From: Mobula hypostoma
Taxonomy: Eukaryota
DNA: 64,000 nucleotides
NCBI RefSeq assembly: GCF_963921235.1
Contig: NC_086097.1
Coordinates: 72,108,001-72,172,000 of the forward strand
Direction: 5' to 3'
Both the position numbers and the translations under genes were made by a program. Under the pieces are notes generated by a model. The model did not search any database. It saw only the letters and a program-made list of their open reading frames with translations, and was not told where the DNA came from. The first letter of the stretch is position 1, and the number at the start of each line of letters is the position of its first letter. Below are positions 22,692 through 49,419 of this stretch, piece after piece.

Positions 22692-22727
22692 AGTCGACGT
22701 TTCAGGCCGAGACCCTTCATCAGGACT
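22692..22727 (-). ncRNA. Minimal type-I hammerhead ribozyme motif (intact core)
   Basis: Minus strand reads AGUC-CUGAUGA-AGGGUCUCGGCCU-GAAA-CGUC^-GACU. Stem I is AGUC/GACU, stem II is AGG/CCU, stem III is the palindromic ACGU, and the cleavage triplet is GUC. Confidence 0.8.
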
Positions 22728-22746
22728 AACTGAAGGAAGTTCAGTT

Positions 22747-22782
22747 AGTCCTGACGAAGGGTCTTGGCCTGAAACATCGACT
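22747..22782 (+). ncRNA. Minimal type-I hammerhead ribozyme motif (stem III palindrome broken)
   Basis: AGUC-CUGACGA-AGGGUCUUGGCCU-GAAA-CAUC^-GACU. Confidence 0.65.
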
Positions 22783-22959
22783 GCATCTCTTCCTAGAGAT
22801 GTTGCCTGGCCTGCTGCGTTCACCAGCAACTTTGATGAACCTTGAAGTAGATGGGCTACAGCAACAGAAGACCACAAACAAACACTGAGTGACTACTTTA
22901 TTAGGTACAGGAGGGGCCCAATAAAGTGGTCTCTGAGTGTACATATCTAGTGTACTGCC

Positions 22960-23545
22960 ACTGATGTAAAGATCATCAGTCTATAATTTGCCGAATTATA
23001 CTTGTTGCCCTTTTTAAACAAAGGAAAAGAATGGCTAATCTCAAATCTTGTGTTATCTTCCCTGTGGCTGAAGAGGAAACCAAGATCTCAGTCAAGGCCT
23101 CAGAAATTTTCTCCATTGGTTCCTTCACTCTTCTGGATTTTATCCCATCAACCTCTCCTTAATATCAACATGGCCTAGAATATCAACATACCCTTCCTTA
23201 ATCTCACTATTATCCATGTCCTTCTCCAACTCGATAAGGAGCATATATTTCCTCAAGCATAAACCCCTCCTTTGTCCTTAAGTGGGCCTACATTAGCTAT
23301 CCTCTTCCTCCTCTTATACCTACTTTTAATCTGTTTTGGGATTCTCACTAATACTGCTTGTCAATTAAATTTCACAACCCATTTTAGCCTTCCAAATTTC
23401 TTGTTTAAGTTCCCTCTTGCTTCTTTTATATTGCTCAAGTGCCTTGTCTGAACTCAGCTTCCTGAACCTTACATCTGCTTCCTTTTTATCTTTTTGATAA
23501 AATTGTAATATCTCTTGTCATCCAAGGTTCCCATGGTTCCCTTAA
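22960..23545 (-). mobile_element. Degraded CR1 LINE fragment
   Basis: Reverse complement of the NYR.I.L.SV and EPW..RDI segments of CR1 ORF2. Confidence 0.65.
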
Positions 23546-23549
23546 GGAA

Positions 23550-25252
23550 AAATATTTCCTGACAAATCCATTGGAACTCTTTGAAGAAATAAAAGCAAGA
23601 TAGACAAAGGAGAATTGGTGGATGTTGTATACTTGGATTTTCAGAAGCCTTTTGACAAGGTGCCTCATGTGAGGCTGGTATTACAGAAAAGCGACTAGCC
23701 TGGATAGAGGATTGGCTGATTGGCAAGAGGCAAAGAGTGGGAATAAAGTGATCTTTTTCAGGATGGCTGTCAGTAACTAGTTGTGTTTCACAGATGTCTG
23801 TGTTGGGACCGCTTCTTATTACTTTGTATGCCTACGATTTGGATGATGAAATTGATGGGCTTGTGACCAACTTTGCAGATAAGTGAAGGGGCAGGTAGTG
23901 TTGAGGAAACAGAGAGGCTCCATAAGGATTTAGACAGATTAGAAGAATGGGCATAGAGGTGACAGATGGACTACAGTGTTAGAAGTGTATAGCCATACAC
24001 TTTGGCAGAAGGAATACGAGCATAGACTATTTTCTAAACGGGGAGAAATTTAAAAACTCTGAGTTACATAGAACATAGAACATAGAATAGTACAGCACAG
24101 TACAGGCCCTTCGGCCCACAATGTTGTGCCGACCCTCAAACCCTGCCTCCCATATAAGCCCCCACCTTAGATTCCTCCATATACCTGTCTAGTAGTCGCT
24201 TAAACTTCACTAATGTATCTGCCTCCACCACTGACTCAGGCAGTGCATTCCACGCACCAACCACTCTCTGAGTAAAAAACCTTCCTCTATTATCCCCCTT
24301 GAACTTCCCACCCCTTACCTTAAAGCCATGTCCTCTTGTGTTGAGCAGTGGTGCCCTGGGGAAGAGGTGCTGGCTATCCACTCTATCTATTCCTCTTATT
24401 ATCTTGTACACCTCTATCAAGTCTCCTCTCATCCTCCTTCTCTCCAAAGAGTAAAGCCCTAGCTCCCTTAATCTCTGATCATAATGCATACTTTCTAAAC
24501 CAGGCAGCATCCTGTTAAATCTCCTCTGTACCCTTTCCAATGCTTCCACATCCTTCCTATAGTGAGGTGACCAGAATTGGGAGTCCTCATGCAGAATTAC
24601 CTTAAGGTTAATTTGCTGGTTGAATTGTTGGTGAGGAAGGAGAATGCTATGTTAGCATCCATTTCAAGAGGGTTGGAATATAAAAGTAAGGATGTAATGA
24701 TGAGGCTGTATAAGGTACTGGTGAGATCTCACTTGGAGTATTGTTAATAGTTTTGGGCTCCTTATTCAAGAAAGGATGTGCTTACATTGCAGAGAGTTCT
24801 GAGGAGGTTCCCAAGAATGATTGGGGAATAAAAAGATTATTACATGAGCAGCGATTGAAGGCACTGGGCCTGTACTTGCTGGAATTTAAAAGAATGAGAG
24901 GATAAAGCCTAGATAGAGTAGACGTGAAGAGGATATTTCCTTTGGTGGGGGAGTCAAGGACCAAAAGACACTGCATCAAAATAGAAGGATGTGTATATAG
25001 AACAAAGATGAATCAGACTTTCTTTCGCCAGAGGATGATAAATCTGTGGAATTTGTTACCACAGGTGGCTGTGGAGGCCAGGTCACTGGGTGCATTTAGG
25101 GTGAAGGTTGATAGGTTCTTGATTAGTCAGGATATGGGGAGAAGCAGAAGAACGGGGTTAAGAGGGAATTGAAACTGCCATGATAAAATGGTGGAGAGGA
25201 CTCGTTAGACTGAATTACCTAATTCTGTTCCTATGTCTTATGGTCTTATGGT
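23550..25252 (+). mobile_element. CR1 LINE RT and 3' portion, with a nested antisense CR1
   Basis: LTN.LE.FEE, VDVVYLDFQKPFDKVPH, FAD and IFPLVGESRT remnants. The tail is CTTATGGTCTTATGGT. Confidence 0.88.
24067..24580 (-). mobile_element. Young 5'-truncated CR1 3' end nested in an older CR1
   Basis: Clean minus ORF 24136..24549 (ALERVQRRF.RMLPGL..YSLERRRMRGDLIEVYKI..FFTQRVV.AWNALP). (ACATAGA)n tail at about 24066-24086. Confidence 0.93.
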
Positions 25253-25289
25253 TCCGGAACCTCGCTGTCTTTGCTCTTTGTTTTCACAA

Positions 25290-27000
25290 AAGCATACTTG
25301 ACCTTAACTCCCAATCTATTCCTCCAAGTTTCTTCCTCATACTAGCCTTCCTCCAATTTTGCAATTTAACCTAAAGACCTTTAAGTAAGGTCTTAGCCTT
25401 ATTTATAACTATCTTAAAACGTATAGAATTATGGTCACTGTTCCTAGAAGTATCCCTTATTGAAACTTTGATCATCTGGCCAGGCACATATCCCAATATA
25501 AAATCTAGTACAGCCCATCCCTCGTTGAACCATCTATATATTGTTTCAAGAAACTCTCCTGAATACACCAAATCAATTCTGCCCATCTAAATTCCCAGCA
25601 CTAAGAGAGTCCCAGTTAAAACTGAGGAAGTTAAAATCATCCAGTACAATAATCCTGTTGTTTTCACATCTTTCCATGGTCTATATGCATATCTGTTCAC
25701 CTATCTACTGCTGACTATTGGGAGGCTATGGTATAACTTCATCATAGTGATTCCATCTTTCTTATTTCTGAGTTTGCCCCATATGGCTTGTTGTATGAGC
25801 CCTCCAAGACATCCTCTCTTAGTGTAGCTATGACATAGTGTTGAGCTGTCTTTCTCCTTCTTTCTCAACCAAACCTCTGTTAATGTCTGCAACATCCTAG
25901 CTCCATGTATTAAACCAGGCCCTAATTACATTTGCTCTACTGTTACACTTCTTGCATGAAAATAAATATATCTCAGGCCACTAAACTGCATCATTAATTA
26001 TTCTGGCCCTGCCTGTTGTCCTGTTGAGTCTTATTTGACTTAACGTCTAACTTCTCCTCAATCACTCCACCTGCTGATTCCTGTTTCAGTTCCTATCTCC
26101 CTGCCACACCAGTATAAACCCTCCTGTGTAGCACTCATAAACTTCACCATGATATTAGTCCCCCACCCCCTGATTTTAGCCGCAACCTTTCCTTTTGGTG
26201 CAGATTCCACCTGCTCTGGAGAAAAGCCCAAAGGTTCAACTACCTGAAGATTCCCTACTCCCACCTCTAAGACCAGCTCTTTAGCCACAAATTTGGATGC
26301 ACTATCTTTCTATTGCTACCTTTGCTTGTACATGGCCCTAGGAGGAAACCCAAGATTACAACCCCAGAGGTTCTGTTCTTCAACTTTCTACTTCACTCTC
26401 TCAATTTGCCATGCATCTTCTCCTCTCTCTTCTTACCTATGTAACAATATGGAGCAGGACCTCTGTCTGCTCAGCCTCCCTTTTCAAAATGTCTGTTCAG
26501 AGATATCCTTAACACTGGCACCAGGGAAGCAGCATACCATCCTGGAGTTTCGCTCATAGCTACAGAAATGCCGCCCCCCCCCCCCACCACCCCGTGCCCA
26601 TGACTATGGAGTCCCCTATCACTGTTGCTCACCTAGACCTTGACTTTCCCTACTGTACAACAGAGCCATTTGTGGTGCCTCTGATCCGGCTGCTGTTATT
26701 GCTTTCACTTGAGTGGATGCCTTTCCCCCCAACAGTATCCAAAACAGTTACAGGGGACTTCGGAATTACCTCATTGCCCATTCAAGTGATTACCCATCTA
26801 TCTGGCTGAATCTGTGATGTGACCAACTTTATGAAAGTCTATGCACCTTCTGCCTCCTATATGTTCCTCAGTGAGCCCAACTGATCCATGTAGTCTGAGG
26901 AGGATACACTACTTGCAAATGCAGTTGTCAGGGACAACTGACTTCACCCTGGTCTTCCTCAGCTCATAGAGGGAGCATGCTACTCTCTACTGACAGTTAT
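25290..27000 (-). mobile_element. Degraded CR1 5' half (endonuclease and ORF1 remnants)
   Basis: Minus-strand SDHNSIRFKI and IW..LRNKK..IT...Y motifs, plus an ORF1 remnant near 26500-26620 (IGDS.V and C.PGA-type motifs). Confidence 0.7.
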
Positions 27001-27249
27001 TTCTTCTTCTGGAGTTAGAACTGGGTTAAAAGAAAGGAAGAGGAAAGACAGAACATTGACATAATGGGTCCTGTCCTGTGCAAGACACCTTGATAAAGTC
27101 TCATTGGTCAAATTTTCTGTTCTTAGACCTCAAGCACAGCCCTTCCGCCGCAAAACAGCCAGTCTCAAAAATTATTTAAAATTATTTGAATAGCATTTAA
27201 ATATCGCTGACTCATTTTTGTCAAATGTGCTCGAGTTTTTATTTATTTC

Positions 27250-27552
27250 ATTTTCTTTAAAGATACAATGTGGAAGAGGTCCTACCCGCCCCCCCACAAC
27301 CCCCATGCCCAATGAACTGCACCACCCAGCAACCCACTCATTCGACCCCTGCCTAATCACAGGACAATTTACAATGAGTAATTAATCTAATAACCAGTAC
27401 GTATTTGGACTTCGGATGGAAACCAGAGCACCAGGAGGAAACTCACACACTCACGGGAAGGATGTACAAATTCCTTACAGAGGACATTGCAAATGAACTC
27501 CAAACCCCAAGACACCAAGCTGTAAGAGCATCGTGCTAACTCATATGCTACT
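27250..27552 (-). mobile_element. V-SINE (HE1-like)
   Basis: The reverse complement contains the V-domain (GGAATTTGTACATCCTTCCCGTGAG..GAGTTTCCTCCTGGTGCTCTGGTTTCC..CCGAAGTCCAAA). Confidence 0.8.
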
Positions 27553-28148
27553 CTGTAGACAATGCCTCGTGGGCTGAGTCACTCTGCGGAACCAAAACCG
27601 CAAATGCTGCAGACACTCAGCAGGTTAAATTGCATCGGTAGAAGGAGAAATAGTCAGCATATCATGTCTGTAACCTTTCCCCAGAAGTAGGGCAGAAAGA
27701 GATTTCAGTTTGTTTTCATTAGCAGAGGACGTTGGGAAGGAGTGTGTGGAACAAGGGATGAATCAGAATAAATCAGTACATTAAACAATGCAGAACCTCT
27801 GGACCTCAGGATTGGTCCTGGGGTGCTGCAGGTTAAATTGTCTGACCTTCTGTATCCAGAGAATATGAATGCTTTTAGGAAATATTGGGCTTTAGAAAAT
27901 GTCAGGCCCAAAACTGCCAGCTCATGATGTATTGTGTCAGGTGATCAGATCTCTCAGGTCAGAGGACAGAATATACTCAATAGAATTTATACAGCACTTG
28001 TGAAAATTGATTAAGTGGGATAAAAATCTGACATATCTGTTTCCAAGACCACTAATTCCAATTAAGTGACATTTTTTCCATTTTCCATTTTCTTCCATTT
28101 TTATTTAAATCATATAACAGAGCAGCTGAGAGCTGGTTTGAGAGGGTT

Positions 28149-28520
28149 TGTCATGATATGCGCTGGCAAAGACTGAACCCAGGTGTGGAGGAAAGACTGA
28201 ACCCAGGTGTGGAGGAAAGACTGAACTCCCATGTAGAGATGGAAACAACAGTTTATCCATAGAAATTCCTGCAGAACATCTGTGGCTCCACCGAGTGACA
28301 CTGCGAGACAAATCATTCTCAAAACAAGGATCCTGCGATGAGCCCTAATCAGGAGTGCACTTTAAATAATCACAGTCAAAATAAACTTGACAGCATTAAA
28401 CAGAAAGCACAAGTGCTTACCAATTCTAGTTGAGACAAGAATTAGCAAACACCGGTGCTCTAGAAATCTCAGAGCCCAACGCTCTCCGGCTCACTGCACA
28501 GGCCCACGGGGCTTATGACA
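28149..28520. mobile_element. Solo LTR with 5-bp TSD GGGTT
   Basis: TGTCAT...ATGACA termini. GGGTT at 28144-28148 and 28521-28525. Internal 24-bp tandem duplication. Homologous to 42585-42935. Confidence 0.88.
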
Positions 28521-30228
28521 GGGTTAGCAGTAGGCCAGCACAAGAGGTAGCTAGCAACCCCTTTTCGACTGTATGCGGGTGATAAGGAGTGGAAAGCCTG
28601 GGCTGATGTTCCCAGAGACGACCGAGTGGTGTCCAAGGAGGTGATGGTGAGCAGCAGCACAAAGTTGCGAGGAGAGAGGCTGATGATTATGCCTTGCTTC
28701 ATAAAGACAACAGTAACTCAGCTCCTGAAGCCGGAAGATATTTATTAATGTTGCCAAACCCTGAGTGTGTTCCATTACTTTTTGGCTGTGACAGGTGTCC
28801 CTACATTTTCACCAATTACAGGCCCCACTGTGTTAGGAAAATACTTTCACTTGATCCGACCCCTGACTTTGAACGAGACCATGAAAGTTTGAGGTGGGAT
28901 TTTTAATTTCATCCAAATTGTTCAAAAGAGGAAGTTTGTTAACGAATTACGGTTCAGACAGGAATGACTCTGAGGAGATTGTCGATAAGAAAACATTGCA
29001 AGTAAAGCATAACCTAGCTTTGCAAGCAGCTATTAATTAGGAACAAAGAACAAGTAAACAGTATTTCAACCCATCTATGTTGTTTCTCCATCCAGTCAAT
29101 CATGGCTATTCTATAACTCAAACCCATTCACACAACTTTGCTCTGTAGCGCTCAGCAGATTTGTCTCAGAACAGAAATCATTCATCATATTCAGTCTCAA
29201 ATTTACAGTATTTCAGATCTCTGTTGCCCTCAATTTGCAGAAACACAAACTGGAAATTTCCTTCAGTCTTGGGCAAATTGAGCACAGCAGGTAACTGGAC
29301 CTCACTGACCTTGTGCTCACATATTTCATTGGATTTCTTCTCTCCTTTCAGGTATGTGACTCTTCCTTCTGTGAACACTTCTGTATTTTTCACATGTTAC
29401 TTTTTGTCTGTATACTTGGTTCCTGACACGGTAAAATAGCACTCCTCTGATTCACAATTTGATTGGAAAATCTGCTGAGATTTTTGAAATAATCTTTTTG
29501 CTCCAATCTCCGGGATCATTCAAAGGAGATGAAATTTTACTATTATACTGGAACCAAAATGTTTAATATTAAGTAGAATGTATCTAATTGAGATTGGTAT
29601 CTTTATTGTAAGTCTAGATTTTCACCAAGACTCATATCTTTCCTTTAGCAAATTAATTTTCTATTGTTCTGACCGCTGAAGCTACTATAAATAGTGATAA
29701 ACCATTACCAATGCTTATTCTGATATAGGTTGGCAGTGTCTTTGTCTTCTTCCTAAAATTATCCTTGCATTTTAATCAACATACATTCTGCTGTAGTTTG
29801 AATGCCTCACTTTTAAAAAAAGTATTCATTTATCCTCTGTCAACTGATATCACCTACCTCAATTCCTAATACTGAGTTATTACACTTCACAAGCCAACAC
29901 CTAGTTAGGAGGCCATTTGAACATCTCCTTGACTGTCTTAATGCATTGTGGTCTGTACTTGGTCTTTGTGGGTATACAAGTATTTTAGACCTGCTTATCT
30001 ACAATTCATAGCTTTGCTGAGATAACAAATATTTGTGAACTATTATCACACAAATGTGTCTATTCGCCCTCTGCAGTGTGACAACTTGAATTTGTTTTAC
30101 CATTGGGTAAATTGTTTTAATATTGTCCCATGTACTGAGATACAATGAATCCAGTTCCTACAGATCATTTCATTACAATGGAGCACTGAGGCAGTCTGAG
30201 TTAAAAATAATAATAGAATATAGAGTAA

Positions 30229-30787
30229 TGTCATAGTCCGGTCCATGAAGTCCGCATTTTGGTTCATGGACTGGTCCATCGATCCTTATTCCAGGTTTTC
30301 TGGTTTTCCTTTGTTCTGTTGGATGCTCTAATTGAGGCACATGATTCTTGTCTAGGCAGACACATAAATACCTCCGGAGACGAGGGGTTGGCTGCTGGAT
30401 TGTTCCTGTCAAAACTCCCTGTCTGAATCCCTTCTTGGCCCCTTCCTCCTGAAGCCGAGCTGTACCTCGTCCTGTCCAAGTCATGGCTTTGTGTTCTCGT
30501 CCTGTGCAAGAGTCTCATGTCCTGTTCCGTAGCCACGCCATGTCCTCGCCTAGTTCTGGGGTCCGAGCCTGAGTCAAGACCCAGGTTCTGGGTCCTTGTC
30601 CAGTCTCTGGCTCGGAGTCCAAGCCCAGGCTCCTAGTTCCCAGTTCCTTGTCCGGGTTCCGGGTTTATTAGCCAATGTCCAGCCCAAGTCTGTGTTCTTG
30701 TCCCAGCTCTCAAGTCAAGTCCTGTTCCTAGTATTTCAGTGTTTGTGTCTTGCATTTGGGTCTGCCACCATCACCCACCTTATAACA
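30229..30787. mobile_element. Solo LTR with 5-bp TSD AGTAA, inserted in a Rex1 3' UTR
   Basis: TG...CA termini. AGTAA at 30224-30228 and 30788-30792. The flanks rejoin into a minus-strand Rex1 3' region (about 30090-31010). Confidence 0.88.
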
Positions 30788-31239
30788 AGTAATGTCTTAC
30801 AGTTATGGAGAAAGTGCACTGCAAGTAGACAATAAGGTGCAAGTATATTGCAGGTAGTCAAGAGTCCATCTTATTGTACTAGGGAACTATTCAATACTTG
30901 TAAAACAGTGGGATAGAAGCTGTGTTGAGCCTGGTGATATGTGCTATTAGGCATTTGTGTCTTCTGCCTGGGGTGGGTGGGGTCATTGATTATGCTGGCT
31001 GCTTTACAGAGGCAGGCTCCTGATCCCGCATGGAAAACTTCAATCAACACTGAACTGATTCCACAACCTATGGTCTCTGAATTTTGCAGACCAATTGTCT
31101 GTCTTTCTAGTAGTTTCTCATTGATTCTGATGCATTTCTTTAACCTACTGTGAATGCCTGCAAGAAAATGAATCTTGGGGTAGTATATGGTGACATACTG
31201 TATACATAGTTGGATAATCAATTTACTTTGAACGTTGAG

Positions 31240-32900
31240 TACTTGGAGGGGAGGCTGGTTTTGTTCACGCTCAGCAACTTGAAGTTCTCAACCCTCTCCA
31301 CATCAGCACTGTTGACATAAATAAGGGCATATGTATCGTCCACTTCCTGAAGTCAATGACCAGCTCTTTTGTTTTGCTACCATTAAGAGAAAGGTTCTCA
31401 TGAGACTATGTCACTAGGCCCTCTGTCTCATTCCTGTCCTGTGACTCAGTGTTATTTGAGAAACGACCCATGATGATAGTAGCATCAGCAAACTTGTAGA
31501 TGTAGTTGGAGCAGAATCTGTCACTGCATTGATGAGCATATAGAGATTAGAGCATGGGGGATGAGGTCACAGCTTTGTGGGGCACCAGTGTTGAGGATAA
31601 TCCTGGCAGAGGTGTTGCTGCTTATCCTTACTGATGGTCAGGAAGTCGATGATCCAATTGCAAAAAGCGGTGTTGAGTCCCAAGTCTAGGAGTTTGGAAA
31701 TGAGCTTGCATTGTTTGGAAAGCAGTGCTTTAGTCAATAAATCTAATGTAACACAGGTTTCTTTACTGTCCTGATGCTCCGGTGCTGAGTGTAGAGCCAG
31801 GGAAATGGTCTCTGCAGTAGGCAATTGCACTACGTGGAGGCTGTCTAGGAGTCTGGAGTTCATGTGTGCCAGGACTAGCCTATTGAAGCACTTCATGATG
31901 GCGGATGCTAGAGGGTGTCACTGCTTGAGCATTAAGATACGTTACCATGTTTTTCTTGGGTACTGGAACACTAGTGGCCTTAAAGCTGCTGGGAACCTTA
32001 GATTGGAGCAGGAATAAGTTCAAAATGTCTGCAAATAGCCCAACCAGCAGATCCACACAAGATCTAAGGACATGACTAGGGACATCACTAGGCCAGGTGC
32101 TTTCTTCAGGTTCACTCTCTGGAAAACTAATCTTGCATCTGCAATTGTGACTGTGGGTTGAGGGGCATTGGAGGCTGTTTGGTTGCGGGGTGACATTTTA
32201 ATCCCCTTCTGTTCTAAACTTGCATAGAATGTGTTAAGTTCATCAAGAAGAACTGAAGCATTGCCTGCCTTTGTTTTGTAACCCGTTATGTCATGTATTC
32301 CCTGCCACAATTGACAGCTGGTCTGCAACTTGATTTTGGACTGGTTTTGGCTCTTGGTATCTCCAATGGGTTTGCAGAGGTTGTATCTCAATTCCTTATA
32401 AAACTCCTCAACAGACTTGCTTGTAAACTCTGTGATGGACTCACCTGGCTAGCCACTGAGTCTTTAAACATGGATTAGTCTAGTGACTCAACGCAGTCAT
32501 GTAAAAACTCACCATTTCCTCAGGCCAGCACAATACAATTTTCTCTGCTGGATTACCGTATTGCAGTTTCTGCTTGTTTGCAGGGAGAAGGAGCACAGCC
32601 TGGTGATCTCATTTACCAAAGTGTGAGAGTGAGCGGGATGTTTCGGTAGGCATCTTTGATAGTTGTGCACCAATGGTAACATACTCTTGGGGTCACCAAT
32701 GATGAAAAGGTCCTCAGGGTATTCGATAGAACACAGTTCTTTGAGTCCAGGCTTCACATCCACTTGGGGTGGGATGTAAATTGCCATCAGGATGGCTGAA
32801 GTGAACTCCAGTGGTAGGTGTCAGGGGTGACATTTCACTGTTAGATATTCCAAGCTGAGTAAACAGGAACTTGCTAGGACCAACACACCTGAGTACCACA
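31240..32900 (-). mobile_element. Degraded Rex1/Babar LINE (endonuclease to RT)
   Basis: Minus ORFs show AIYIPPQ, LWQGIH.ITGYK, DELN.FYA, MKCF.RLVLAH and CNWI.DFL. Confidence 0.85.
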
Positions 32901-38633: not shown

Positions 38634-39353
38634 TGTAGATTTCAGGGGGTTTCAACTTTTATGTTACTGCAGAGGTTAATTAAAATGGTGTCCTTGTTAT
38701 GTTAATCTGGGGAATGCGACTTTGTTGTGTTAAACGCTGAAAAAGTTTGCGCTAGCAGCTTGTTTTGGTTTAGAGTGTGATAAGAAATATGTTATTAACC
38801 AATTGGGATAGCTGTTATGGTTTTGGTGTATTTGAAGATACTGTATGCGCGGGGTTTTGGGGCAGAAGGCGGGAGAGCGAGACAGAGGATGGACCAGGTG
38901 CTGTGATGTCCGCTAATGGGGTCAGACCCCGATAGGGGCGCTCGGCGAGGAGAGGAGACGGAGACGGACTCGTGTGGAGCATCTGGTCGACCACTGTTGT
39001 TGGTCCCAGGCGGCCGGTCGAGGTGGTCCGAGGGGTTGCAGGGTGAAGAAGAAGGTCCTTGAGCTCCAACAGTTTTGTGCACGAAGAGATTGAACTTTGA
39101 TAAGTGTGGCACCTTTTATTTTCCTTCTATATTTTATTCTCTCTTAAATTATATAGTTCCAGTAATATCTATAAACTGTAAACCATTTAATTGTATCTGG
39201 TGTATTGTCTGTTATTTGGGCGAGGTGGGGTACATCACACAGCATCCACACAAACGAGTTATCCAGTTTGGCGGGGCCGAGGCTGTTTCCCTAGACGACA
39301 GCAAGCCGAGCAACCCTGAGGGTGGCCGGGGGTGGGGGGGGGTGGGGGCTACA
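38634..39353 (+). mobile_element. Solo LTR, CpG-rich and probably recent
   Basis: TGTAG...CTACA inverted termini around a CpG-rich non-coding block with a G-rich 3' end. No exact TSD was found, so the 5' boundary and strand are uncertain. Confidence 0.6.
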
Positions 39354-39384
39354 ATTGTTACTTTCTGTGAGACCAGATACAACA

Positions 39385-39800
39385 TAAAACATAGAACACT
39401 ACAGCCCAGTACAGACCTTCAGCCCACAATATTGGGACAAACTTTTAACCAACTCCAAGATCAATCTCACACTTCACTCCCACATAGCCCTCCATTTTTC
39501 TTTCATCCATGTGCCTATCTAAGAGTATCTTAAATGGTTCTAATGTATCTGACTACCACCATTCCTGGTGGAATGTTCCACACACCCACCACTCTCTTGT
39601 GTCTCTGACATCCCCCATACTTTCCCCTAATTATGCCATCTCATATTAGCCATTTCTACCCTGGGAAAAAGTTGCTAGTTCTCCACTATATGAAAGCCTC
39701 TTATAATGTAATATACCTCTACCAAATCACCTCTAGACCTGCTTTGCTCCAAAAAGAACCCCTAGCTCACTCAACCTTTCCTTATAAGACATGCTCATAA
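39385..39800 (-). mobile_element. CR1 3' end remnant
   Basis: CATAGAACACTACAGC tail and the reverse complement of RVVGVWN.LP. Confidence 0.75.
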
Positions 39801-41469
39801 AACATGAAAGGCATAGAACACATTGCCACCACAAAACTTCAGTTAGGGATCAAATAACTAATAAACATGCAAGGTAATATTTTACCTGGACTTTTTTTGT
39901 AGCAGTAACAAATTGGCAGCATTCTACCCATTAAAATAGAGATGGTTCATTTAATTCCTGTCATTATTTGACTGTGCATGAACATTAAGTGGTACTCCAG
40001 GTAAATTAGCTGTCCCATGGTGGGCAGGGTTGTTGACTATTTATTACTAAATCAAATGGGTGTTTCAGAAATGATCCAAATGAGTACAAAGGTTAAGCAC
40101 TGTGTCCCAGTTAGCTTCTTGAGGGACTTTGCATGAAAGATATAAAATTAGAACAAACATCCAAAAGGAGCATGAAGTGAGTGGATGGAAAGTAGCCAGA
40201 CAGAGAGAGCACAAAGTCAATAGTGGGCGTGCGTGGTGTTCCGGATGGTCGAGTGCAGCCAATGATGCATCTGATGCAAAAAAAAAGATATATACTGGTA
40301 TGGTAATCCTAAGGCAGGATAATCAGAGGTTAGAGATGGAGGAAGAGAACTTGAAGAAAATAAGGTATTTAGCTTGTGAAGTTAGAGAGAAAGGGCAGCT
40401 GAGATCAAAAGAGGACAGTCTGGATGAAGATGCAAAGCAATGGTTATTCTGAAGGAAGCAGACCAAGGTGGATAAGAGGAAATATTGAAAGTCAGAGTGA
40501 AGGAGACAAATAAGAGGTGAGATCAAAAGACTATCATGGCATCCTGCTTGATTATATTAAAATGACATCCAGGCAGCTCATTAGAGAAATCTGCAGCAAG
40601 AAAACAAAAGCAAAATATGAACCTCAGATAAATTCTCCAGTTGATCACATTACTGTCACAAATAATCTGAAAAATCAATCTGAGAATTGATCAGAATTTA
40701 TTTGAAGTGTCGTGGTATTGGGTTGCAGTGGCAGACAGAACAAGCATGATTAGAAATTGGACATGGATGAAATTATCACTAGAGTTTCTTGTGCTTTGAT
40801 TGAAGCAGTAATATCAGCACTATGAGAACAGCATTAGTTAGGGAGTGAAGTAAGTCTGGTAGAGCAACAGCAACTAATAAAACTATTTGTTTCATCTCAT
40901 CAGATAACCTTGAGAAAATTCATAGTGTTCAATTGTATTGATATTTTGCGTGTTGTTAATAGTAATGATGTTTTTTTTAATTTAAGTATATTCCATTTTG
41001 TCTATTTTGTCCAATAAGCAAATCGCCTTCTTCCTCTGTTATATTTAATTATCAGTTCCTCCGACCTTTCTTTTAAACCCCATCTACCTGAAACACGACT
41101 AGTGAGAAATTTGACTTGTATACCACATGATCCAAATTTGAGATAAAAATGAATCATGAGGAAGTACAAGGAGTTTGATGCCTGATTGAAATAAATATTT
41201 TTGTTTTGTTTGTTCAGGATTGCTCTGACAACGGTGGTGGTGCTGCAGCTAAATTCAGGAACCAGCAATCTAGATATCTGAACTCAAATCTCACCAAGGC
41301 AACTGCAGAGTTTAAATTCAGTTAATAATCTGTTCTAAAGATGAAACTGCATCATGTTTAAGGATAACCAGAAAATTATTTTACAGTTGATGCATTTTTC
41401 CTCCTCACCTTGTCCACTCTTCCCTTTCCACTAACCACCCTCATTTATATGCTACTTGCCCTTGAAACC

Positions 41470-41625
41470 GCAGGTGCTATCCTTTCACCTCCTCACTCCC
41501 TACCATCTGGAACCCAAGCAGACTTTCCAGCTGAACAATAATCCACTTGTACGTCTTCCAATGTTTTGTAATGCATTTCATTTGCATAATGCAGTCTCCT
41601 CTGTATTAGAGAAACCAAAAGCAGA
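41470..41625 (+). mobile_element. Old Penelope GIY-YIG remnant
   Basis: Frameshifted PKQTFQ...TCTSSN....C..C.LL.I.ETK.R pattern. Confidence 0.55.
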
Positions 41626-41924
41626 CATAAAATCAAAATCAGCTTTATTAACACAGACATATGTCATGAAATTTGTTGTTTTGCAGCAGCAAAACATGAC
41701 TGTAGATAAAATATACTCTAAGTCACAGTAAGTCATGGATAAAAGCTCTATAGTTTTATTTTGATCCTGTGCAGTGGCTCCTTAATACACCAATTAGAAT
41801 GCTTTCCACGGTACATTTGTAGAAAGTTGTCAAAGTCTATGATTAGAGATTTGGACATACCAAACCTTCCCAAACTCCTAATGAAATATAGCCACTGGCA
41901 TGCCTGCCTCATAATTGCATCAGT

Positions 41925-44900
41925 ATAAGACCATAAGACATAGGAGTCATCCTCCATCTTCCTACCCATAATCTTTGATGCTATGACTAATAAAGAACTT
42001 ATCAACCTCCACATTAGACATACTCAGTGACTTGGCCTCCACAGCTATCCATGACAATGAATTCCACAAATTCACCATCCACTGGCTAATGTAATTCCTC
42101 ATCTCCATTCTAAATGGATGTCATTTTATTCTGTGGATGTACCTTCCAGTTCTAGACTCATCCACTATAGGAAACAGCCTCTCCACATCTACTCTACCTA
42201 GGCTTTTAATATTCAATATGTTTCCATGAGATAGCCCCTCATTCTTCAAAAGTCCAGTGAGTACAGGACCTGAGCCAGCAAACGCTCCTCATACATTAAC
42301 TTCCTCATTCTCAGAATCATTGTTGTGAACTTCCTCTGGACCCTCTCCAAGACTTAGATATGGGGCCCAAGACTGTTCACAATACTCCAAGTGCAGTCTG
42401 ACCAGTGCCTTATAAAGCCTCAGCATTACATCCTTGCTTTTATATTTTAGTCCTCTCAAAACAAATGCTAATAATGATCTTGCCTTCCTCACCAATAAAT
42501 CAACCTCCAAGTCCCTTAGCACCTTTTATTTTTGAATTTTCTCCCCATTTAGAAAATAGTCTGTGCTTTTACTCCTCCTACCAATGACATAATGTGCTCT
42601 CGGAGGACGGGACCCAGGTGTGGAGGAACAGCAGGTTCTCCTGGAAAAGGAGAAACAAAAGGTTGAACATCAGAACCAGATTTTTGGAGGAGTGACTAAG
42701 TAACACCACAAGGTAATTCATCCTCTCCAACATAATGACCTCACTAAAGCCCAGACTGAGAGTCCTTCTTAAATAATCATAGACTGCTGGAAACACTTGT
42801 CAGCCACAATTAACTTGACAAGAGAAAACCAAAAACACAAGGGCTTAACTCTAGTTAAGATAATGATTAGTAAATACAGGTGCTCAAAAACCCTAGAAGT
42901 TCAATGCTCTATGGCAAGCCATAGGAATCATGGTAACCAAAGTGGATGACCATATATTTCCCATACTAGTATCCATTTGGAACCTCTTTTCTCATACTCA
43001 CAATATGTCTAAGTCCTTCCACAGACTCAATGCTTCCTCAACACTGTCACCTACCTTTGTATCATCCACAAAGAGCCAAAAGCCATCAATTCCATCATCT
43101 AAATCATTGATACACAATGGAAAATGAAGTGGTCCCAATACCGACCCTTGTGTAACACCACTAGTCTCTGGCACCCACTCAGAATAGGCCCACTTTATTC
43201 CCACTTTTTGCCTCCTGCCAGTCGGCCAATCTTCTATCCATGCTAATATCTTTCTTGTAATACCATGGGTTCTTGTCTTGTTAAGCAGCCTCATGTGTGG
43301 CCCTTGTTAAAGGTCTTCTGAAAGTTGAAGTAAACAATATCCACTGACTCTCCCTTGTCTATCCTGCCTGTTATTTCCTCAATGAATTCCAATAACTTTT
43401 TCAGGCAAGATTTCCCCTTTAGAAAACCATACTGATTCGGTCTACCTTATCATGTGCCTCCAAGCACCCCAAAACCTCATCCTTAATAATAGACTCCAAC
43501 ATCTTTCCAACCATTGAAATCAGGCTAACTGCCTATAATTTCCTCTCTTCTGCTTCTCTCCCTTGAAGAGTGGAGTGACGTGCAATTTTCCAGTCCTCAG
43601 GAACCATTCCAGAATCTAGTGATTCTTGAAAAGCCATTACTAATGAGTCCACAATCTCTTTAGCTACCTCTTTCAGAACTCTGGGGTATAGTCAGTCTGG
43701 TCTATGTAATTTATCCACCTTCAGACCTTTCAGCTTCGCACCCACCTTCTACTTAGTAATAGCAACAACACTCATTTCTGCTGTCTGACACTCTGGCATA
43801 CTGTAATGTCTTCCACAGTGAAGACTGATGCAAAGTACTTTTTAAATTTGTCTGCCATTTCTTTGTCACTCATAACTACCTTTACAGCATCATTTTCCAC
43901 TGGACCAATATCCACTCTTGCCTCTCTTTTACTCTTTATATATCAGAAACTGTTGTTATCCTCTTATATTATTAGCTAGCTTGCTTTTGTAGCTCATCTT
44001 TTCTATCCTTATTGATTTTTAGTTGCCTTCTGTTGATTTCTAAAAGCTTGCCAATTCTCTAACTTGACACTAATTTTTTCTATATTATATGCCCTCTCTT
44101 TTGCTTTTATGCTGTTGTTGACTTCCTTTGGATGCCTCATCCTCTCTTTGAAATACTTCTTCATCTTGAAGATGTATCTACCCTATTGAGTTGCTACCAG
44201 GAACTCTAACCATTGCTGTTATACCATCATCACTGACAGTATCCTCTTCCAGTCAACTTTGGTCAGCTCATCTCTCATGCCTCTGTAATCCCCTTTACTC
44301 CATTGTAACACTGATACTGACTTTATCTTCTCCCTCTCAAATTATAGAGTGAATTCTATCGTATTATGATCACTGCCTCATTTACCTGAAGGTTCCTAAT
44401 CAAAACTGGTTCATCGCACAACACCCGATCCAGATTTGCCTTTCTGCTGGTGGGGTCCACCACAGGCTGTTCTAAAAATCCATCTTGTAGATATTCTACA
44501 AACACCTCTCTTAGGATCCAGCACCAATCTGATTTCCCCAATCTACCTGCATATTGAAATGCCTCGTGACTATTATAACACTGCTCTTATTAAATGCCAT
44601 TTCTATATCCCATTGTAATTCATATCTCACATCGTGGCTACTGTTTGGAGGCCTGTGTACTGTGTAACTCCCATCAGGGTCTTTTCACTCTTGTAGTTTC
44701 TTAACTCTTCCCACAAGGATTCTACACCTTCCAATCCTATGTTACCACTTTCTAAGAATTTAATTTTATTTTTTATCAGCACAGCCACCCCATTCCCTCT
44801 GCCTTCCTGCCTGTCCTTTTGATAAAATGTGTGTCCTTGGATGTTACGCTCCCAACTACGATCTTCTTTCAATCATGACACAGAGATGCCCTCTATGTCA

Positions 44901-45620
44901 AACCTGCCAATCCCCAGAAGAGATTTTAATGATCCAGAAATCTGAAACCTGCCCCCTGCACCACTTCCTCAGCTACTCATTGATATGTACTGTCATCCTA
45001 TTTCTGCCCTGACAACCACAAAGATCACTACCTTGGAGGTCCTGCTTTTCAACCTCTTCCCTAACTCCCTATACTCACTGTGTAGGATCTCTGATCCCTT
45101 TCTACCTGTGTAGTTGGTACCAATGTGTACCGTCACCTCTGACTGCTCACCCTCCCTCTTGCGAATATTCTGCAACCACTTGGAAACATCCTGACCTCAG
45201 CACCTGGTGGGCATCACACCATTTTTGCATCGTTTTCACAGACAGAATTTCCTGTCCATCCTCCTAACTATTGACTCTCCTGTCAATATCACTTCGCCTG
45301 ACTTTACCACCCTGCCACCTTCTTGACTGGTGCTGCTGTGCCCTGATAGGTCATGCGAAGGAGCCCTGCACTGCCTGCTTGCTCCCATTACTTCTCCTAC
45401 TGGTTGCCCACCTACTCTCTGACGCCAGCACTCTGGGTGTGACCACCTCAGTAAAAGTCTTATCAATGAGGTTTTCACCCTCTCAAATGACCCTGTGTAC
45501 ATCTTGCTCTAGCTCCAGTTCCTTGATCTTGTCTCTCAGAAGGTGAAGCTGAGCACTTCCTGCAGATGTAGTAATAGACTGTTAGGTACCCTGAAATCCC
45601 ACATCTAACAGGAGGAGCTT
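41925..45620 (-). mobile_element. Near full-length degraded CR1 LINE (ORF1 SGNH esterase plus ORF2 EN/RT)
   Basis: ORF1 remnant GEQ.EV.VHIGTN..GRK.SE.L..EYRELG.RLKSRTSKVVI (44993..45175). EN remnant at 44627..44872. RT remnant SGV.QGSVLGPL.F...INDLD...FVDDTK (42998..43294). Tail (ATAAGAC)n at about 41925-41940. Confidence 0.9.
42585..42935. mobile_element. Older solo LTR (same family as 28149-28520) with 5-bp TSD ACCAA, nested in CR1
   Basis: ACCAA at 42580-42584 and 42936-42940. Shares ACCCAGGTGTGGAGGAA and the TTAG.AAA.AC.GGTGCTC block with the 28149 LTR. The CR1 flanks rejoin. Confidence 0.8.
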
Positions 45621-45919
45621 TACACTACTTTGAGTACCATCTGCCTACACAATAGCCAGTTCAACAATGGCCAGTCGGCTTATGCCTCACGTTTTTTATT
45701 GGCCCCTGCTGCTGTGAAGTTTCAAAAAGCCCCAAGCTCTTTTTAAGCCTTGCTCTGCCACCCGAGGAACGAATTCTCGCAATGATTGCGGCCTGATGAA
45801 GTATGGGTGATCACTTTTCAGACTACCTGGTTTAGTTTCAGTCCACAGCAACAATTCTGAGCTTCTGATCCTGCCTGACACTTTAATTCTCTGAGCCACT
45901 CCACTCTGATCTATCAATC

Positions 45920-46435
45920 TCCTGCAAAGTTTTAATGAGGCCAAACACACACTGGGAGAATAGCATTTTGCCCTCCATTGGCCGCTTTTGCAGCTTTATA
46001 GATGGAATATTGATTTCTACTACTTCAGGTATTTTTTCACCTGTATTAGTCATCTATCTGTGATATTGGCTCGGCTTGCTTCTTTCTTTCCTCCTTTTCC
46101 AGTAGGATTGCTGGCATGTGGCACGTCTTCCTCCTCTGCCTTTTCAGTTTCCCCATTCTTTCCCCTAGCTTCTCCTTCCCTCACTGCTCCCATTCACTCT
46201 TTGACCAGGTCACCATGTTCACAGTTTACCCGCTCGTAGTCACACAAGCTTTACTCCATCGGAGACATCCCAGTCCCCACATTTACTGCACCTTAACCAG
46301 CTTCTCTTGTCTCCCTCTCAGTTCTGAGGAAGGGTGTTCGACCTGAAATGTTGACTGTTTCTCCTTCCACAGACGTAACCGGGCCTGCTCACTATTTCCG
46401 GCACTTTAATTCTTTTTGATTTCCAGCATCTGAAG
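45920..46435 (+). mobile_element. Old Penelope-like 3' region with a hammerhead motif at 46320-46356
   Basis: Degraded C-terminus near 45930-46020 and terminal repeat AGTT-CTGAGGA-AGGGTGTTCGACCT-GAAA-TGTT-GACT, followed by GATTTCCAGCATCTG. Confidence 0.7.
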
Positions 46436-46529
46436 TTTTGTTAAAATGGTTTTCATGTATTTTATCCCCAGTTCTGAGTAAACGATGGTGAGAAGCCGAT
46501 CTGCTGGAAACAATGTACAGAAGGAGGTA

Positions 46530-46790
46530 AAGAGGTGGCCTAGTGGTGCAGCAGTAAATGTTGCCTGGATCCCAATGCTTCCTGTGGCTTTACACATATT
46601 CCCTGCGACCGTTTGGGTTTCTCCCGGTGCTCAGGTTCCCTTCCACATACCAACAACATGCTGGCAGGTTAGTTGGTCACTGCAAATGAATCCGTCGGGA
46701 TTATTAGGGGAGTTGATAGGCAAAAAAAGGAGAATAAGCTGCAGGGGTATAAGGAGAATAGGACTAATGGGATTTTATTCTGCAGAGCCA
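46530..46790 (+). mobile_element. Degraded V-SINE (HE1-like)
   Basis: tRNA-like head GGTGGCCTAGTGGTGCAGC and V-domain TTCCCTGCGACCGTTTGGGTTTCTCCCGGTGCTCAGGTTCCCTTCCACAT. Confidence 0.75.
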
Positions 46791-47599
46791 TTATGAACCC
46801 TATGGATCTAGTGGCCACCTTCCTGCTGTAATAAATAAAGAAGATAGGAGTAAACAGTGATAGGTAATTAAATATCCACACTCCATCTCCATTAATTATT
46901 CACACTTCATGGCTTGGGAAATAGCTGCTCGTCTTCCATCTGAGCATTGTGCAGCCTTCGAGGCTAATGCTGAGTTCTCCACCTTTAGGGAGCTGACTGC
47001 CTGCCTGTATTAGACTGGCCATTAATGCCTGCCTTCACTTTGGTTCAGTTTCAGTTTACATAGTCTGGCCATTTACAACACAGTACACTGAATAAGAGTT
47101 TTAATGTGCTAATCTCTCTGTGGGGGTGGGGGTGGTGTACTGGTTGGGAATGATTGTCAGATACATTGGTTTAAAAAAAAATCACTGCAATTCCAAATCT
47201 TGAAAAGGTAGTTGATATAATTGGGATGAGTGATAACTGTTGTCATAATTTCGGAGGGTGGGGGAAATGCCCCAGAAGTGGGCCATATTTTGTTTCCCCT
47301 CAGTTTTTCCCAGGAGATTGCATTATTGATTGGGTAGTGTGGTCAATGATGTGGCTAAGTCGTGTCACATTTAGATGATGTGCCAGGTTTGATGGATCAG
47401 TTAATATTTTTCAATTCCTTGCTCATCTGTCCAGGAAAAGGAATCTGTGAGGACATCAGGGACTGCAGATGCTAGAATCTCCCTTGCATCTTGTCTCATG
47501 CAATGAGCTCATATGACAGCTCCAGCTTCTTTTGCTGTATATGGAAATCAAAACAAAACTGCAGATACTGGAAGATTGAAATAAAATCACTTTAGATCA

Positions 47600-48252
47600 T
47601 TCCCGGTGTGGCCTCCTATATGTCAGTGGGACCCAAAGTAGATTAGGAGACTGCTTCGCTGAGCACTCATAGCGACCCATTTTAATTCCACTTCCCATTC
47701 CCATTCCATCATGTCAATCCAGGGCCCCCTCCACTGTTGTGATGAGGCCACACTCTGGTTGGAGGAGCAACACCTTATATTCCGTCTGGGTAGCCTCCAA
47801 CCTGATGGCATGATCATCAATTTCTCTAACTTCGAGTAATACCCTCCACCCCCTCCCGTTCACCATTCCCCATCCCCTTTTCCCTTTCCTTGCCTGACCA
47901 TCAGCTCTCTCTGCTGCTCCTCCTCCCTTTTCTTTCTTCCAGGGCCTTCTGTCCTCTCTTATTAGATTCCCCCTTCTCCAGCCCTGTAACTCTTTCACCA
48001 ATCAACTTCCCAGCTCTTTATTTCACACCCCCTCCCTCCTGGTTTCACCTATCACCTTGTGTTTCTCCCTCCCCCATCCCCCGCCTTTTAAATTTACTCC
48101 TCATCTTTTTTTCTCCAGTTCTGCCGAAGGATTTCGGCTCGAAACGTCGACTGTACCTTTTTTCCATAGATGCTGCCAGGGCAGCAGAGTTCCTCCAGCA
48201 CTTCTTGTGCGTTGCTCAGATTTCCAGCATCTGCAGATTTTCTCTTGTTTGT
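47600..48252 (+). mobile_element. Penelope-like element 3' part (GIY-YIG endonuclease plus terminal repeat)
   Basis: SRCGLLYV..TQ.RLGDCFAEH..HFNSTSHSHS..LEEQHLIFRLGSLQPDGM.I.FSN. Hammerhead remnant AGTT-CTGCCGA-...-GAAA-CGTC-GACT at 48117-48152 has a mutated core. Confidence 0.9.
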
Positions 48253-48894
48253 CACTTTAAATGAAATACTGGAAACACCCAGCGGTTCAGGTCGTACATG
48301 TGGAAAGAGAAACAGAGCTAGCAGCTCAAGGCAGGGAGATTTCGTCAGAGTGGCTACATGTAATATTATTAATAGAATGGAGAAATTAGTTATATCAATT
48401 AGGTTTAAAGTTTCACTTCAGATCACAAAACTAAAAGGTCAGTAATTAAACTTCATTGACTTAATTTACTTTCATATTCAGTGCAGAACAAATATTGAAA
48501 GGGAGGATTATTTTTGGCATCCTTTTAACCCTGCCATTAAGAAATGTGCCTATTTTTTCTAATTGCACTCTGACTGAGATACTGTTTGTTCCGGTTGTAA
48601 AATTGACTGTTCCATATTCGGCTGCTCAAGAGAGGTATAACAAATGATTGTTAAAAAAAAATGAAATTGCTTGAAACTAGATTTTAAATGGTCGGATCCT
48701 CTACAGAATACAATCTCAACTATCAGACAAACCTTTCAGTCCATATTTCTGAAGGCATTTAATAATTTAGACTATTTTTAATTAATTAACATCAAGAACA
48801 TTAGCAATGAGATTAAAAAAAGTTTCACAATAATTTGTCATATGTAGATTAGATAAGGCGAATATATTCCGAACCCATTAACAACAGTGTAAAT

Positions 48895-49240
48895 TAAGCA
48901 ACATACATCAAAGTTGCTGGTGAATGCAGCAGGCCAAGCAGGATCTGTAGGAAGAGGTGCAGTCGACGTTTCAGGCTGAGACCCTTCGTCAGGACTAACT
49001 GAAGGAAGAGTGAGTAAGGGATTTGAAAGTTGGAGGGGGAGGGGGAGATCCAAAATGATAGGAGAAGACAGGAGAGGGAGGGATAGAGCCGAGAGCTGGA
49101 CAGGTGATAGAACTAACTGAAGGAAGAGTGAGTAACAGATGGGGTACGAGGGGTGATATACTGCGTCCAGTGCTCCCGATGTGGCCTTTTATATATTGGC
49201 GAGACCCGATGCAGACTGGGAGATCGCTTTGCTGAACATC
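48895..49240. mobile_element. Mosaic Penelope-like insertion (inverted terminal repeat joined to a plus-strand GIY-YIG fragment)
   Basis: Minus-strand terminal repeat at 48895-49110. ORF 49153.. reads IYCVQCSRCGLLYIGETRCRLGDRFAEHL (GIY-YIG). Confidence 0.9.
48961..48996 (-). ncRNA. Minimal type-I hammerhead ribozyme motif (intact core)
   Basis: Minus strand reads AGUC-CUGACGA-AGGGUCUCAGCCU-GAAA-CGUC^-GACU. Confidence 0.8.
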
Positions 49241-49419
49241 TGTCCCAGTTTCACAGCATACCAGAGCAAAGATGCATTGTAGACTTCCTCCAATTAAGGT
49301 CCTTGTGCAGAGAGCATCACACAACACAGGGCTTGCCTAAATGCTTCTCTGATATGGAGGGAGTAATACATGCATTAAGTACTTCTCCTCCCAATCTTGT
49401 GACCTCTACCACCTTCAAA

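What the first reader, a model, noticed from the sequence alone, without database searches (positions are those of the whole stretch)
22692..48996. Dispersed family of minimal hammerhead ribozymes carried by Penelope-like termini
The motif AGUC-CUGANGA-(AGG..CCU)-GAAA-CGUC^-GACU recurs. Intact cores are at 22692-22727(-) and 48961-48996(-). Variants are at 22747-22782(+) and 46320-46356(+). Decayed copies are at 15039-15074(+), 48117-48152(+), about 5862-5897(-) and about 56715-56748(-). Stem III is reduced to the palindrome ACGU, the architecture known for PLE-associated minimal hammerheads that are thought to act as dimers. Adjacent GIY-YIG fragments confirm a PLE origin. About eight copies in 64 kb implies a very large genomic ribozyme load (inference) that could affect host pre-mRNAs or generate small or circular RNAs.
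Basis: partly seen in the sequence, partly recalled or inferred. Interest (0 to 1): 0.7.

Follow-up and report, generated by a model that had tools for sequence, protein, structure and literature searches.

The report
Penelope hammerhead relics in a ray
The repeated 36-base motif is real and is the already described minimal hammerhead ribozyme motif of Penelope-like jumping genes; here it sits in broken, scattered copies, only two of which are intact, so it is likely an inert leftover of insertions and not a device acting on host RNA.

Summary
All eight listed sites hold the motif; 2 of 8 have an intact core (shuffles: 0.005 per window). They lie in the end repeat (pLTR) of 5'-truncated or inverted Penelope-like copies. 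One copy runs GIY-YIG, 3'UTR, hammerhead, tail between 8-bp target duplications. Its closest proteins are from rays and carry the Neptune/Nematis zinc-finger linker. The 36-nt block is conserved where subfamily flanks diverge, and the same core with covarying stem I occurs in metagenome contigs, often beside PLE ORFs. That fits selection on active elements. Inserted copies decay at CpG sites, including catalytic G12. The pair at 22692-22782 is head-to-head on opposite strands: a predicted ~120-bp hairpin, not a dimer. The two intact copies are 26 kb apart, no tandem array exists, and no host exon was found, so cutting of host pre-mRNA or circular RNA output is unsupported. Stem II is better drawn as bulged A plus GGGU/GCCU. 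Cleavage was not tested. The class is published (Cervera 2014), and this scan noted the same family many times in this genome and in shark genomes.

The parts
22692..22727 (-). Intact minimal type I hammerhead motif (left arm of inverted mini-insertion); predicted cut after GUC between 22696 and 22695
22747..22782 (+). Hammerhead motif of the right arm, G16.2>A (CpG transition) breaks the palindrome
22592..22834 (.). 243-bp head-to-head inverted pLTR insertion; left arm carries the full tail, right arm stops about 50 nt short; predicted ~120-bp RNA hairpin
22578..22591 (+). 14-bp target-site duplication, left copy
22835..22848 (+). 14-bp target-site duplication, right copy; its first 3 bases also continue the element's tail
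48961..48996 (-). Intact minimal hammerhead motif; predicted cut between 48965 and 48964
48888..49242 (.). Rearranged PLE copy: 3'UTR, hammerhead and tail on - (48888-49108), 27-nt duplication (49109-49135), inverted GIY-YIG fragment on + (49150-49242, 29 of 31 aa identical to P0001)
47595..48251 (+). Older collinear 5'-truncated PLE: GIY-YIG/EN C-terminus (47601-47836), 3'UTR, dead hammerhead (48117-48152, A6>C), tail; 8-bp target duplication at 47587-47594 and 48252-48259
14643..15172 (.). PLE copy with 5' inversion: EN C-terminus on - (14643-14766), then 3'UTR, dead hammerhead (15039-15074, G12>A and G1.1>A) and tail on +
45879..46445 (+). Old PLE copy: weak EN C-terminal remnant, 3'UTR, decayed hammerhead 46320-46356, tail
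5803..5985 (.). Older head-to-head inverted pLTR pair; dead motif at 5862-5897(-), partial motif from about 5900(+)
56618..56757 (-). Decayed pLTR with dead motif (about 56713-56748)
21933..22017 (-).
   Evidence: E 5e-7
15691..15801 (-). Additional decayed pLTR relic (3' half of motif and tail)
   Evidence: E 2e-15
27602..27689 (-). Additional decayed pLTR relic
   Evidence: E 7e-7
41391..41625 (+). Old PLE ORF fragment covering the RT-EN linker and start of GIY-YIG, no hammerhead beside it
   Evidence: (E 8.5e-5)

Best explanation
The motifs are minimal type I hammerhead sequences in the end repeats of truncated Penelope-like retrotransposon copies, likely of the Neptune type in a ray genome; the motif likely works only in the RNA of an active tandem element, as a dimer or with the element's protein, and the scattered copies are likely inert. 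Shown: motif, position downstream of the GIY-YIG end, target duplications, inversions, CpG decay, conservation of the block across subfamilies. Inferred: the endonuclease nicks the target and reverse transcription starts inside the tail about 60-110 nt past the hammerhead on an uncleaved RNA (every copy spans the cut site). At 22592-22834 both target strands were likely extended and both cDNAs ended 7-12 nt 5' of the motif, giving a head-to-head pair. Such short pLTR-only products would explain the high copy number. After insertion there is no same-strand partner and no sign of selection.
For: Motif non-random. Collinear EN-UTR-HHR-tail copy with 8-bp TSD; 14-bp TSD around the inverted pair. 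EN piece 79% and 71% identical to Mobula and Hypanus proteins with RT thumb, CX4CXXC linker and GIY-YIG; full RT+EN relatives at about 50%. The linker marks Neptune/Nematis. In two other organisms' runs, summed depth over the motif (0.9-1.8 M) is far above the adjoining flanks (0.04-0.39 M), and the most frequent listed loose ends in all 4 runs fall at the motif's edges, 48959-62 and 48994-96. In 83 distinct metagenome matches to the core, 42 have stem I of 4 bp or more (shuffled partners: mean 7.9, max 16 of 1000) with A-U/C-G/G-C swaps; 31 of 122 loci have a PLE ORF hit. Decay: core CpG positions differ in 9 of 40 cells against 3 of 72 for non-CpG core; G12>A tracks the share of copies with a CpG there (ratio 0.11-0.18 in 4 of 4 runs). 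Inverted pair: -208.6 kcal/mol hairpin, hammerhead stems at probability 0. Literature: monomers inactive, dimers weak (PMC4209133); protein-assisted and dispensable for insertion in vitro, no RNA-seq ends at the cut site (PMC11167929).
Against: No cleavage assay or RNA-end data. No compensatory change among the 9 window copies (0 of 9 pairs). The window copies were picked for resembling the motif, which inflates core conservation, and they are not independent. G8>A is below 3% in all 4 runs although often in CpG context (deduced); this may be seed bias or selection, and is unresolved. The Neptune call rests on homologues and one degenerate fragment, with no tree; Nematis is not excluded. No intact or tandem element lies in the window. 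The double-hammerhead fold (-11.5) is less stable than two misfolded monomers (-18.4, -22.0) in a nearest-neighbour model, so dimer activity of this family is not predicted without help.
Confidence: 0.8

Rival explanations
1. The 36-nt block is kept in active elements for a non-catalytic role (protein binding, promoter, or a stop point for reverse transcription), and cleavage is vestigial in this lineage.
For: Insertions come from uncleaved RNA (all copies span the site). Arms at 22592-22834 and 5803-5985 begin at or just before the motif's 5' edge, and many loose ends with long, dissimilar flanks sit at 48994-96. The best-matching run mostly has U at 11.1 (79% by depth), weakening the usually conserved G-C pair. 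Cleavage was not needed for insertion in vitro (PMC11167929), and Naiads spread without canonical hammerheads (PMC8557442).
Against: The exact catalytic core, NUH site and covarying stem I recur in distant metagenome contigs, as expected for catalysis. The anole element's motif does cleave with protein and shows C3/G8 rescue (PMC11167929).
Confidence: 0.12
2. One reading: the many intact dispersed copies cut host nascent RNA (in trans dimers or with element protein) or release small or circular RNAs.
For: Density is high: 2 intact per 64 kb (31 per Mb, 95% interval 3.8-113); 31,981 contigs of one DNA run were laid on a 224-bp piece. Xenopus retrozymes are depleted in introns (bioRxiv 10.64898/2026.07.22.740005), which hints at a cost.
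Against: No same-strand intact partner within 26 kb; no tandem array; monomers predicted to misfold; inverted pair sequestered; free CpG decay of G12; no host exon found here; low activity in print.
Confidence: 0.05
3. The copies are non-LTR retrozymes (non-autonomous tandem hammerhead repeats that make circular RNAs).
For: Short, protein-less, hammerhead-bearing units; retrozymes are reported in one chondrichthyan and derive from pLTRs (bioRxiv 10.64898/2026.07.22.740005).
Against: No tandem units; 4 of 8 copies are attached to EN fragments; copies span the cut site rather than start at it; the motif is minimal, not canonical.
Confidence: 0.02

Closest known systems
Minimal hammerheads (min-HHR) in pLTRs of metazoan Penelope-like elements (Cervera and De la Pena 2014, PMC4209133; read parts 1-2 of 4 and searched supplement file 2)
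   Same: Type I core, short helix I (4-5 bp), unpaired base between 9 and 10.1, palindromic 15.2-16.2 with no loop 3, mostly solo copies, and opposite-strand pairs close together.
   Different: Helix II is 4 bp here (7-8 bp in Schistosoma). The young subfamily here has U at 11.1 (G-U in place of the conserved G10.1-C11.1). No cartilaginous fish appears in the parts I read.
Neptune/Nematis-clade EN+ PLEs (Craig et al. 2021, PMC8557442; passages read)
   Same: C-terminal GIY-YIG, CX2-5CxxC linker in close homologues, hammerhead near the 3' end, 5' truncation, inverted 5' partners, tail at one end only.
   Different: Only fragments lie in the window; Neptune versus Nematis was not resolved by a tree; clear 8- and 14-bp target duplications in non-microsatellite DNA.
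Poseidon element PAc of Anolis (Frangieh et al. 2024, PMC11167929; read parts 1-2 of 4)
   Same: Internal RT start sites defining the tail and extension of both target strands fit the 22592-22834 insertion; uncleaved RNA is the template.
   Different: Different clade (Penelope/Poseidon). In PAc the ORF starts inside the hammerhead; here most laid copies have CUGACGA, with no AUG at that place.
Non-LTR retrozymes (Cervera and De la Pena 2020, PMC7229834, passages; Li et al. 2026 bioRxiv, parts 1-3 of 5)
   Same: Type I hammerheads in dispersed non-coding repeats; very high loads are known (126,247 motifs in axolotl).
   Different: Retrozymes are tandem arrays that release circular RNA; these copies are solo or inverted and tied to PLE ORF ends.

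Membership tests
PLE minimal hammerhead (min-HHR) | Catalytic core C3 U4 G5 A6 N7 G8 A9 / G12 A13 A14 / NUH site | tested here: met
   Met in 2 of 8 listed copies; broken in the other 6 or at the palindrome
PLE minimal hammerhead (min-HHR) | No helix III/loop 3; palindromic 15.2-16.2 | tested here: met
   A-CG-U in both intact copies
PLE minimal hammerhead (min-HHR) | Helix I of 4-5 bp, supported by covariation | tested here: met
   5 bp with terminal U-G in intact copies. No compensatory change within window copies; strong covariation among metagenome matches, 42 of 83 against a mean of 7.9
PLE minimal hammerhead (min-HHR) | Unpaired base between 9 and 10.1, and G10.1-C11.1 pair | tested here: inconclusive
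   Bulged-A register favoured. 11.1 is C in 4 of 8 window copies, 73% and 56% of depth in two other organisms and 69 of 83 metagenome matches, but U in both intact window copies and 79% of depth in the best-matching run: G-U wobble variant
PLE minimal hammerhead (min-HHR) | Located in the pLTR of a PLE | tested here: met
   Collinear EN, 3'UTR, motif, tail at 47595-48251; EN pieces at 4 of 8 copies
PLE minimal hammerhead (min-HHR) | Self-cleavage as a dimer or with protein | not testable with these tools
   No assay; nearest-neighbour model does not favour the dimer
Neptune/Nematis EN+ PLE | RT followed by C-terminal GIY-YIG with CCHH | tested here: met
   Window holds EN fragments; homologues P0001, P0003, P0009 show RT then GIY-YIG
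Neptune/Nematis EN+ PLE | CX2-5CxxC linker before GIY-YIG | tested here: met
   Present in P0001/P0002 and P0003/P0004/P0009; only a degenerate remnant in the window at 41391-41625
Neptune/Nematis EN+ PLE | RT phylogeny placing it in Neptune rather than Nematis | not tested
   No labelled reference sequences were retrieved
EN+ PLE insertion structure | 5' truncation, inverted 5' partner, tail at one end | tested here: met
   22592-22834, 14643-15172, 48888-49242, 5803-5985
Non-LTR retrozyme | Head-to-tail tandem units each with a hammerhead | tested here: not met
   No tandem array of the unit in the window; genome-wide not testable

The most novel reading that the evidence does not exclude
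A young ray subfamily with a G-U pair at the base of stem II has spread to very high copy number as pLTR-only mini-insertions; enough intact sense-strand copies sit in transcribed DNA that the element's protein, or trans pairing through the ACGU palindrome, cuts host nascent RNA, making this a genome-wide ribozyme burden measurable as intronic strand bias and defined RNA ends.
Probability: 0.05. Interest if true: 0.6.

Novelty: new member of a known kind. Interest (0 to 1): 0.14.

Why it matters
As it stands it is ordinary: another family of the known PLE minimal hammerheads. Its use is as a test bed. The role of these motifs in transposition is still open, and a genome with this many copies allows well-powered tests of intronic strand bias, core versus CpG-matched decay, and where cDNAs end relative to the motif.

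Tried and rejected
Rfam scan: no hammerhead family hit at E up to 10; this only shows that the minimal form escapes the models. Whole genome not held, so there is no genome-wide count, tandem search or strand-bias test. Viral contigs: 0 matches to the family pattern. No RNA holder listed. One run guessed to be RNA had 4,236 contigs laid, and 1 of its 8 listed pieces bridges the cut site with 31 or more letters each side; the RNA label is a guess and contigs cannot show ends, so it was not used as evidence. Summed depth is not a copy number and was not converted. Covariation inside the window: none. The 22692/22747 pair as a cis dimer: rejected (opposite strands, hairpin). Poseidon clade, my first guess: rejected on the linker. 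Selection on G8: unresolved, since 48978-48996 is the longest exact match to the reference and variants there are likely under-laid. Host gene: none found by Pfam in 368 of 399 ORFs of 55 aa or more; 31 ORFs inside the retroelement at 7792-11182 were skipped and small exons would be missed, so the window may still be intronic. No target duplication of 7 bp or more for the copies at 14643-15172 and 5803-5985; only doubtful 7-mers for two others. Lunse et al. (PMC5785218) is not held; I saw only its title and a review's summary. Supplement file 1 of PMC4209133 could not be searched and bioRxiv supplements are closed; either could list a cartilaginous-fish family.
Full report
Observation. All eight coordinates carry the motif on the stated strand. 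A strict type I minimal descriptor finds 2 sites in the window, 22692-22727(-) and 48961-48996(-); 200 dinucleotide shuffles gave a mean of 0.005. The two 'variants' fail it: 22747(+) has G16.2>A and 46320(+) has C15.2>U and C17>U. The four decayed copies have lost core bases: G12>A at 15039; A6>C at 48117; several at 5897 and 56748. A profile built from 9 copies finds 3 further relics covering part of the motif and 4 weak tail-only hits. Rfam has no hit to a hammerhead family at E up to 10.

What carries the motif. The stretch 47595-48251(+) is a collinear 3' end of a Penelope-like element: GIY-YIG endonuclease end, pyrimidine-rich 3'UTR, motif, tail, between 8-bp target duplications. Endonuclease pieces also adjoin the copies at 15039 (inverted), 48996 (inverted, 29 of 31 residues identical to P0001) and 46320 (weak). 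The 58-residue piece 47663-47836 retrieved 2 proteins among 4 candidates, from Mobula (79%) and Hypanus (71%), so the host is likely a ray. Both proteins have RT thumb, a CX4CXXC linker and GIY-YIG. A search with P0001 for longer proteins gave 85 hits, the best being RT+EN proteins of about 800 residues at 50-52% identity with the same linker. Craig et al. name this linker as the mark of Neptune and Nematis (PMC8557442, passages). I built no tree, so 'Neptune' is likely, not shown.

The pair at 22692-22782. It is one 243-bp insertion, two pLTR arms head to head between 14-bp target duplications. The left arm has the full tail; the right arm stops about 50 nt earlier. Both arms begin 7-12 nt 5' of the motif. 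This fits the tail-at-one-end and inverted-partner structure in PMC8557442 and the internal RT starts and two-strand extension shown for the anole element (PMC11167929, parts 1-2); the mechanism for this locus is inference. The motifs are on opposite strands, so they cannot form a cis dimer. A read-through RNA is predicted to fold into a hairpin of about 120 bp (-208.6 kcal/mol, z -23) with hammerhead stems at probability 0. A second, older inverted pair lies at 5803-5985.

Structure. The register with an unpaired A followed by GGGU/GCCU scores -7.0 against -5.6 kcal/mol for AGG/CCU and matches the unpaired base and G10.1-C11.1 pair of Cervera and De la Pena (PMC4209133, parts 1-2). Position 11.1 is C in 69 of 83 distinct metagenome matches and in 73% and 56% of depth in two other organisms' runs, but only 21% in the run that best matches the window. 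The young subfamily here thus likely has a G-U pair; the reference carries U, which biases these shares toward U. Alone, each intact copy is predicted to misfold by pairing its core with CGUC. The double-hammerhead fold scores -11.5 kcal/mol against -18.4 and -22.0 for two monomers; this model ignores tertiary contacts.

Is the motif under selection? Between subfamilies, yes. With 48885-49108 as reference at 80% likeness, 31,981, 4,236, 9,527 and 14,410 contigs were laid from four runs. In the two other organisms, summed depth peaks over the motif (0.9-1.8 million over 48965-48996) and falls to 0.04-0.39 million in the bins beside it. In all four runs the most frequent listed loose ends lie at the motif's edges (24 rows shown, 730 not shown). 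In the window, non-CpG core cells differ from the majority in 3 of 72 cases against 99 of 436 in the 3' flank; these copies were chosen for resemblance and are not independent. Of 83 distinct matches, 42 have stem I of 4 bp or more, against a mean of 7.9 with shuffled partners, with A-U, C-G and G-C swaps; 31 of 122 loci have a PLE ORF hit, usually just upstream. Within the 9 window copies there is no compensatory change. After insertion, no sign of selection: among the 4 young copies core and flank differ alike (2 of 56, 11 of 220), core CpG cells differ in 9 of 40, and catalytic G12>A scales with the share of copies having a CpG there, ratio 0.11-0.18 in 4 of 4 runs. One result against: G8>A is under 3% in all four runs; I read this as likely seed bias but could not settle it.

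Host effects. The two intact copies are on the same strand but 26 kb apart, and there is no tandem array. Pfam found only retroelement-type domains in 368 of 399 ORFs of 55 residues or more; the weak ALKBH8_N and separase hits lie in retroelement ORFs; small exons would be missed. Every copy spans the cut site, so it was copied from uncleaved or rejoined RNA. In print, min-HHR monomers did not cleave and dimers cleaved weakly; the anole motif cleaved only with protein, was dispensable for insertion in vitro, and left no RNA-seq ends; 1 of 9 Xenopus retrozyme dimers cleaved (bioRxiv 10.64898/2026.07.22.740005, parts 1-3). Extrapolating this window gives 31 intact copies per Mb (3.8-113) and about 190 relics per Mb (97-328); this is not a genome count, as no genome is held. 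Loads above 100,000 hammerheads are known in axolotl (PMC7229834, passages).

Novelty. The class, the dimer model, the solo and opposite-strand copies and the massive spread were described in 2014. Four paper searches and a supplement search (file 1 unreadable) showed no paper devoted to ray or shark PLE hammerheads, though the 2026 preprint includes one chondrichthyan. This scan has noted the same family repeatedly: 81 notes in this genome fit the words 'hammerhead Penelope'; these are unchecked AI notes and are not used as support. Verdict: a correct catch of a known kind; the host-RNA extension is unsupported. Hammerhead numbering (G12 as catalytic base, NUH rule) and CpG hypermutability in vertebrates are from established knowledge, not from a call.

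Noticed in passing
window 22878-22944: 67-bp inverted-repeat hairpin, 30 bp from the inverted pLTR insertion; weak Rfam mir-9256 hit (33 bits, gathering 80). Likely a small non-autonomous DNA transposon (recalled resemblance to Tc1/mariner ends, not tested).
   Followed up: no
window 7936-11110 (+): Fairly well preserved non-LTR retroelement: RT (E 1e-13) followed by a zinc-binding region and a likely restriction-like endonuclease end; several frameshifts.
   Followed up: partly
window 457-1927 (+), 19191-19688 (+), 24136-24651 (-), 43001-43306 (-), 63048-63383 (-): Fragments of other LINE-type elements (RT and AP-endonuclease hits at four of the five); the window is largely retroelement debris.
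   Followed up: partly
window 48973 (position 11.1 of the motif): U is the majority in the best-matching run (79% by depth) but C in two other organisms (73%, 56%): a lineage-specific subfamily with a G-U pair, which also removes the CpG at G12.
   Followed up: partly
window 48994-48996, 22727-22747, 5897-5900: 5' ends of insertions and inversion junctions gather at the 5' edge of the motif, not at the cut site; may mark the transcription start or an RT stop.
   Followed up: partly
window 49109-49153: A 27-nt duplication of the sequence just 5' of the motif, joined to a more upstream 3'UTR piece and an inverted GIY-YIG fragment: likely template switches during insertion.
   Followed up: no
L003 1060-3609: Metagenome contig with a near-full PLE ORF, a same-strand hammerhead about 135 bp after its end and an inverted hammerhead at its 5' side: the same architecture in another organism.
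   Followed up: partly
window 48987 (G8): G8>A is under 3% in all four runs while other CpG guanines reach 9-15% in two of them; likely seed bias, worth a genome-wide check.
   Followed up: partly
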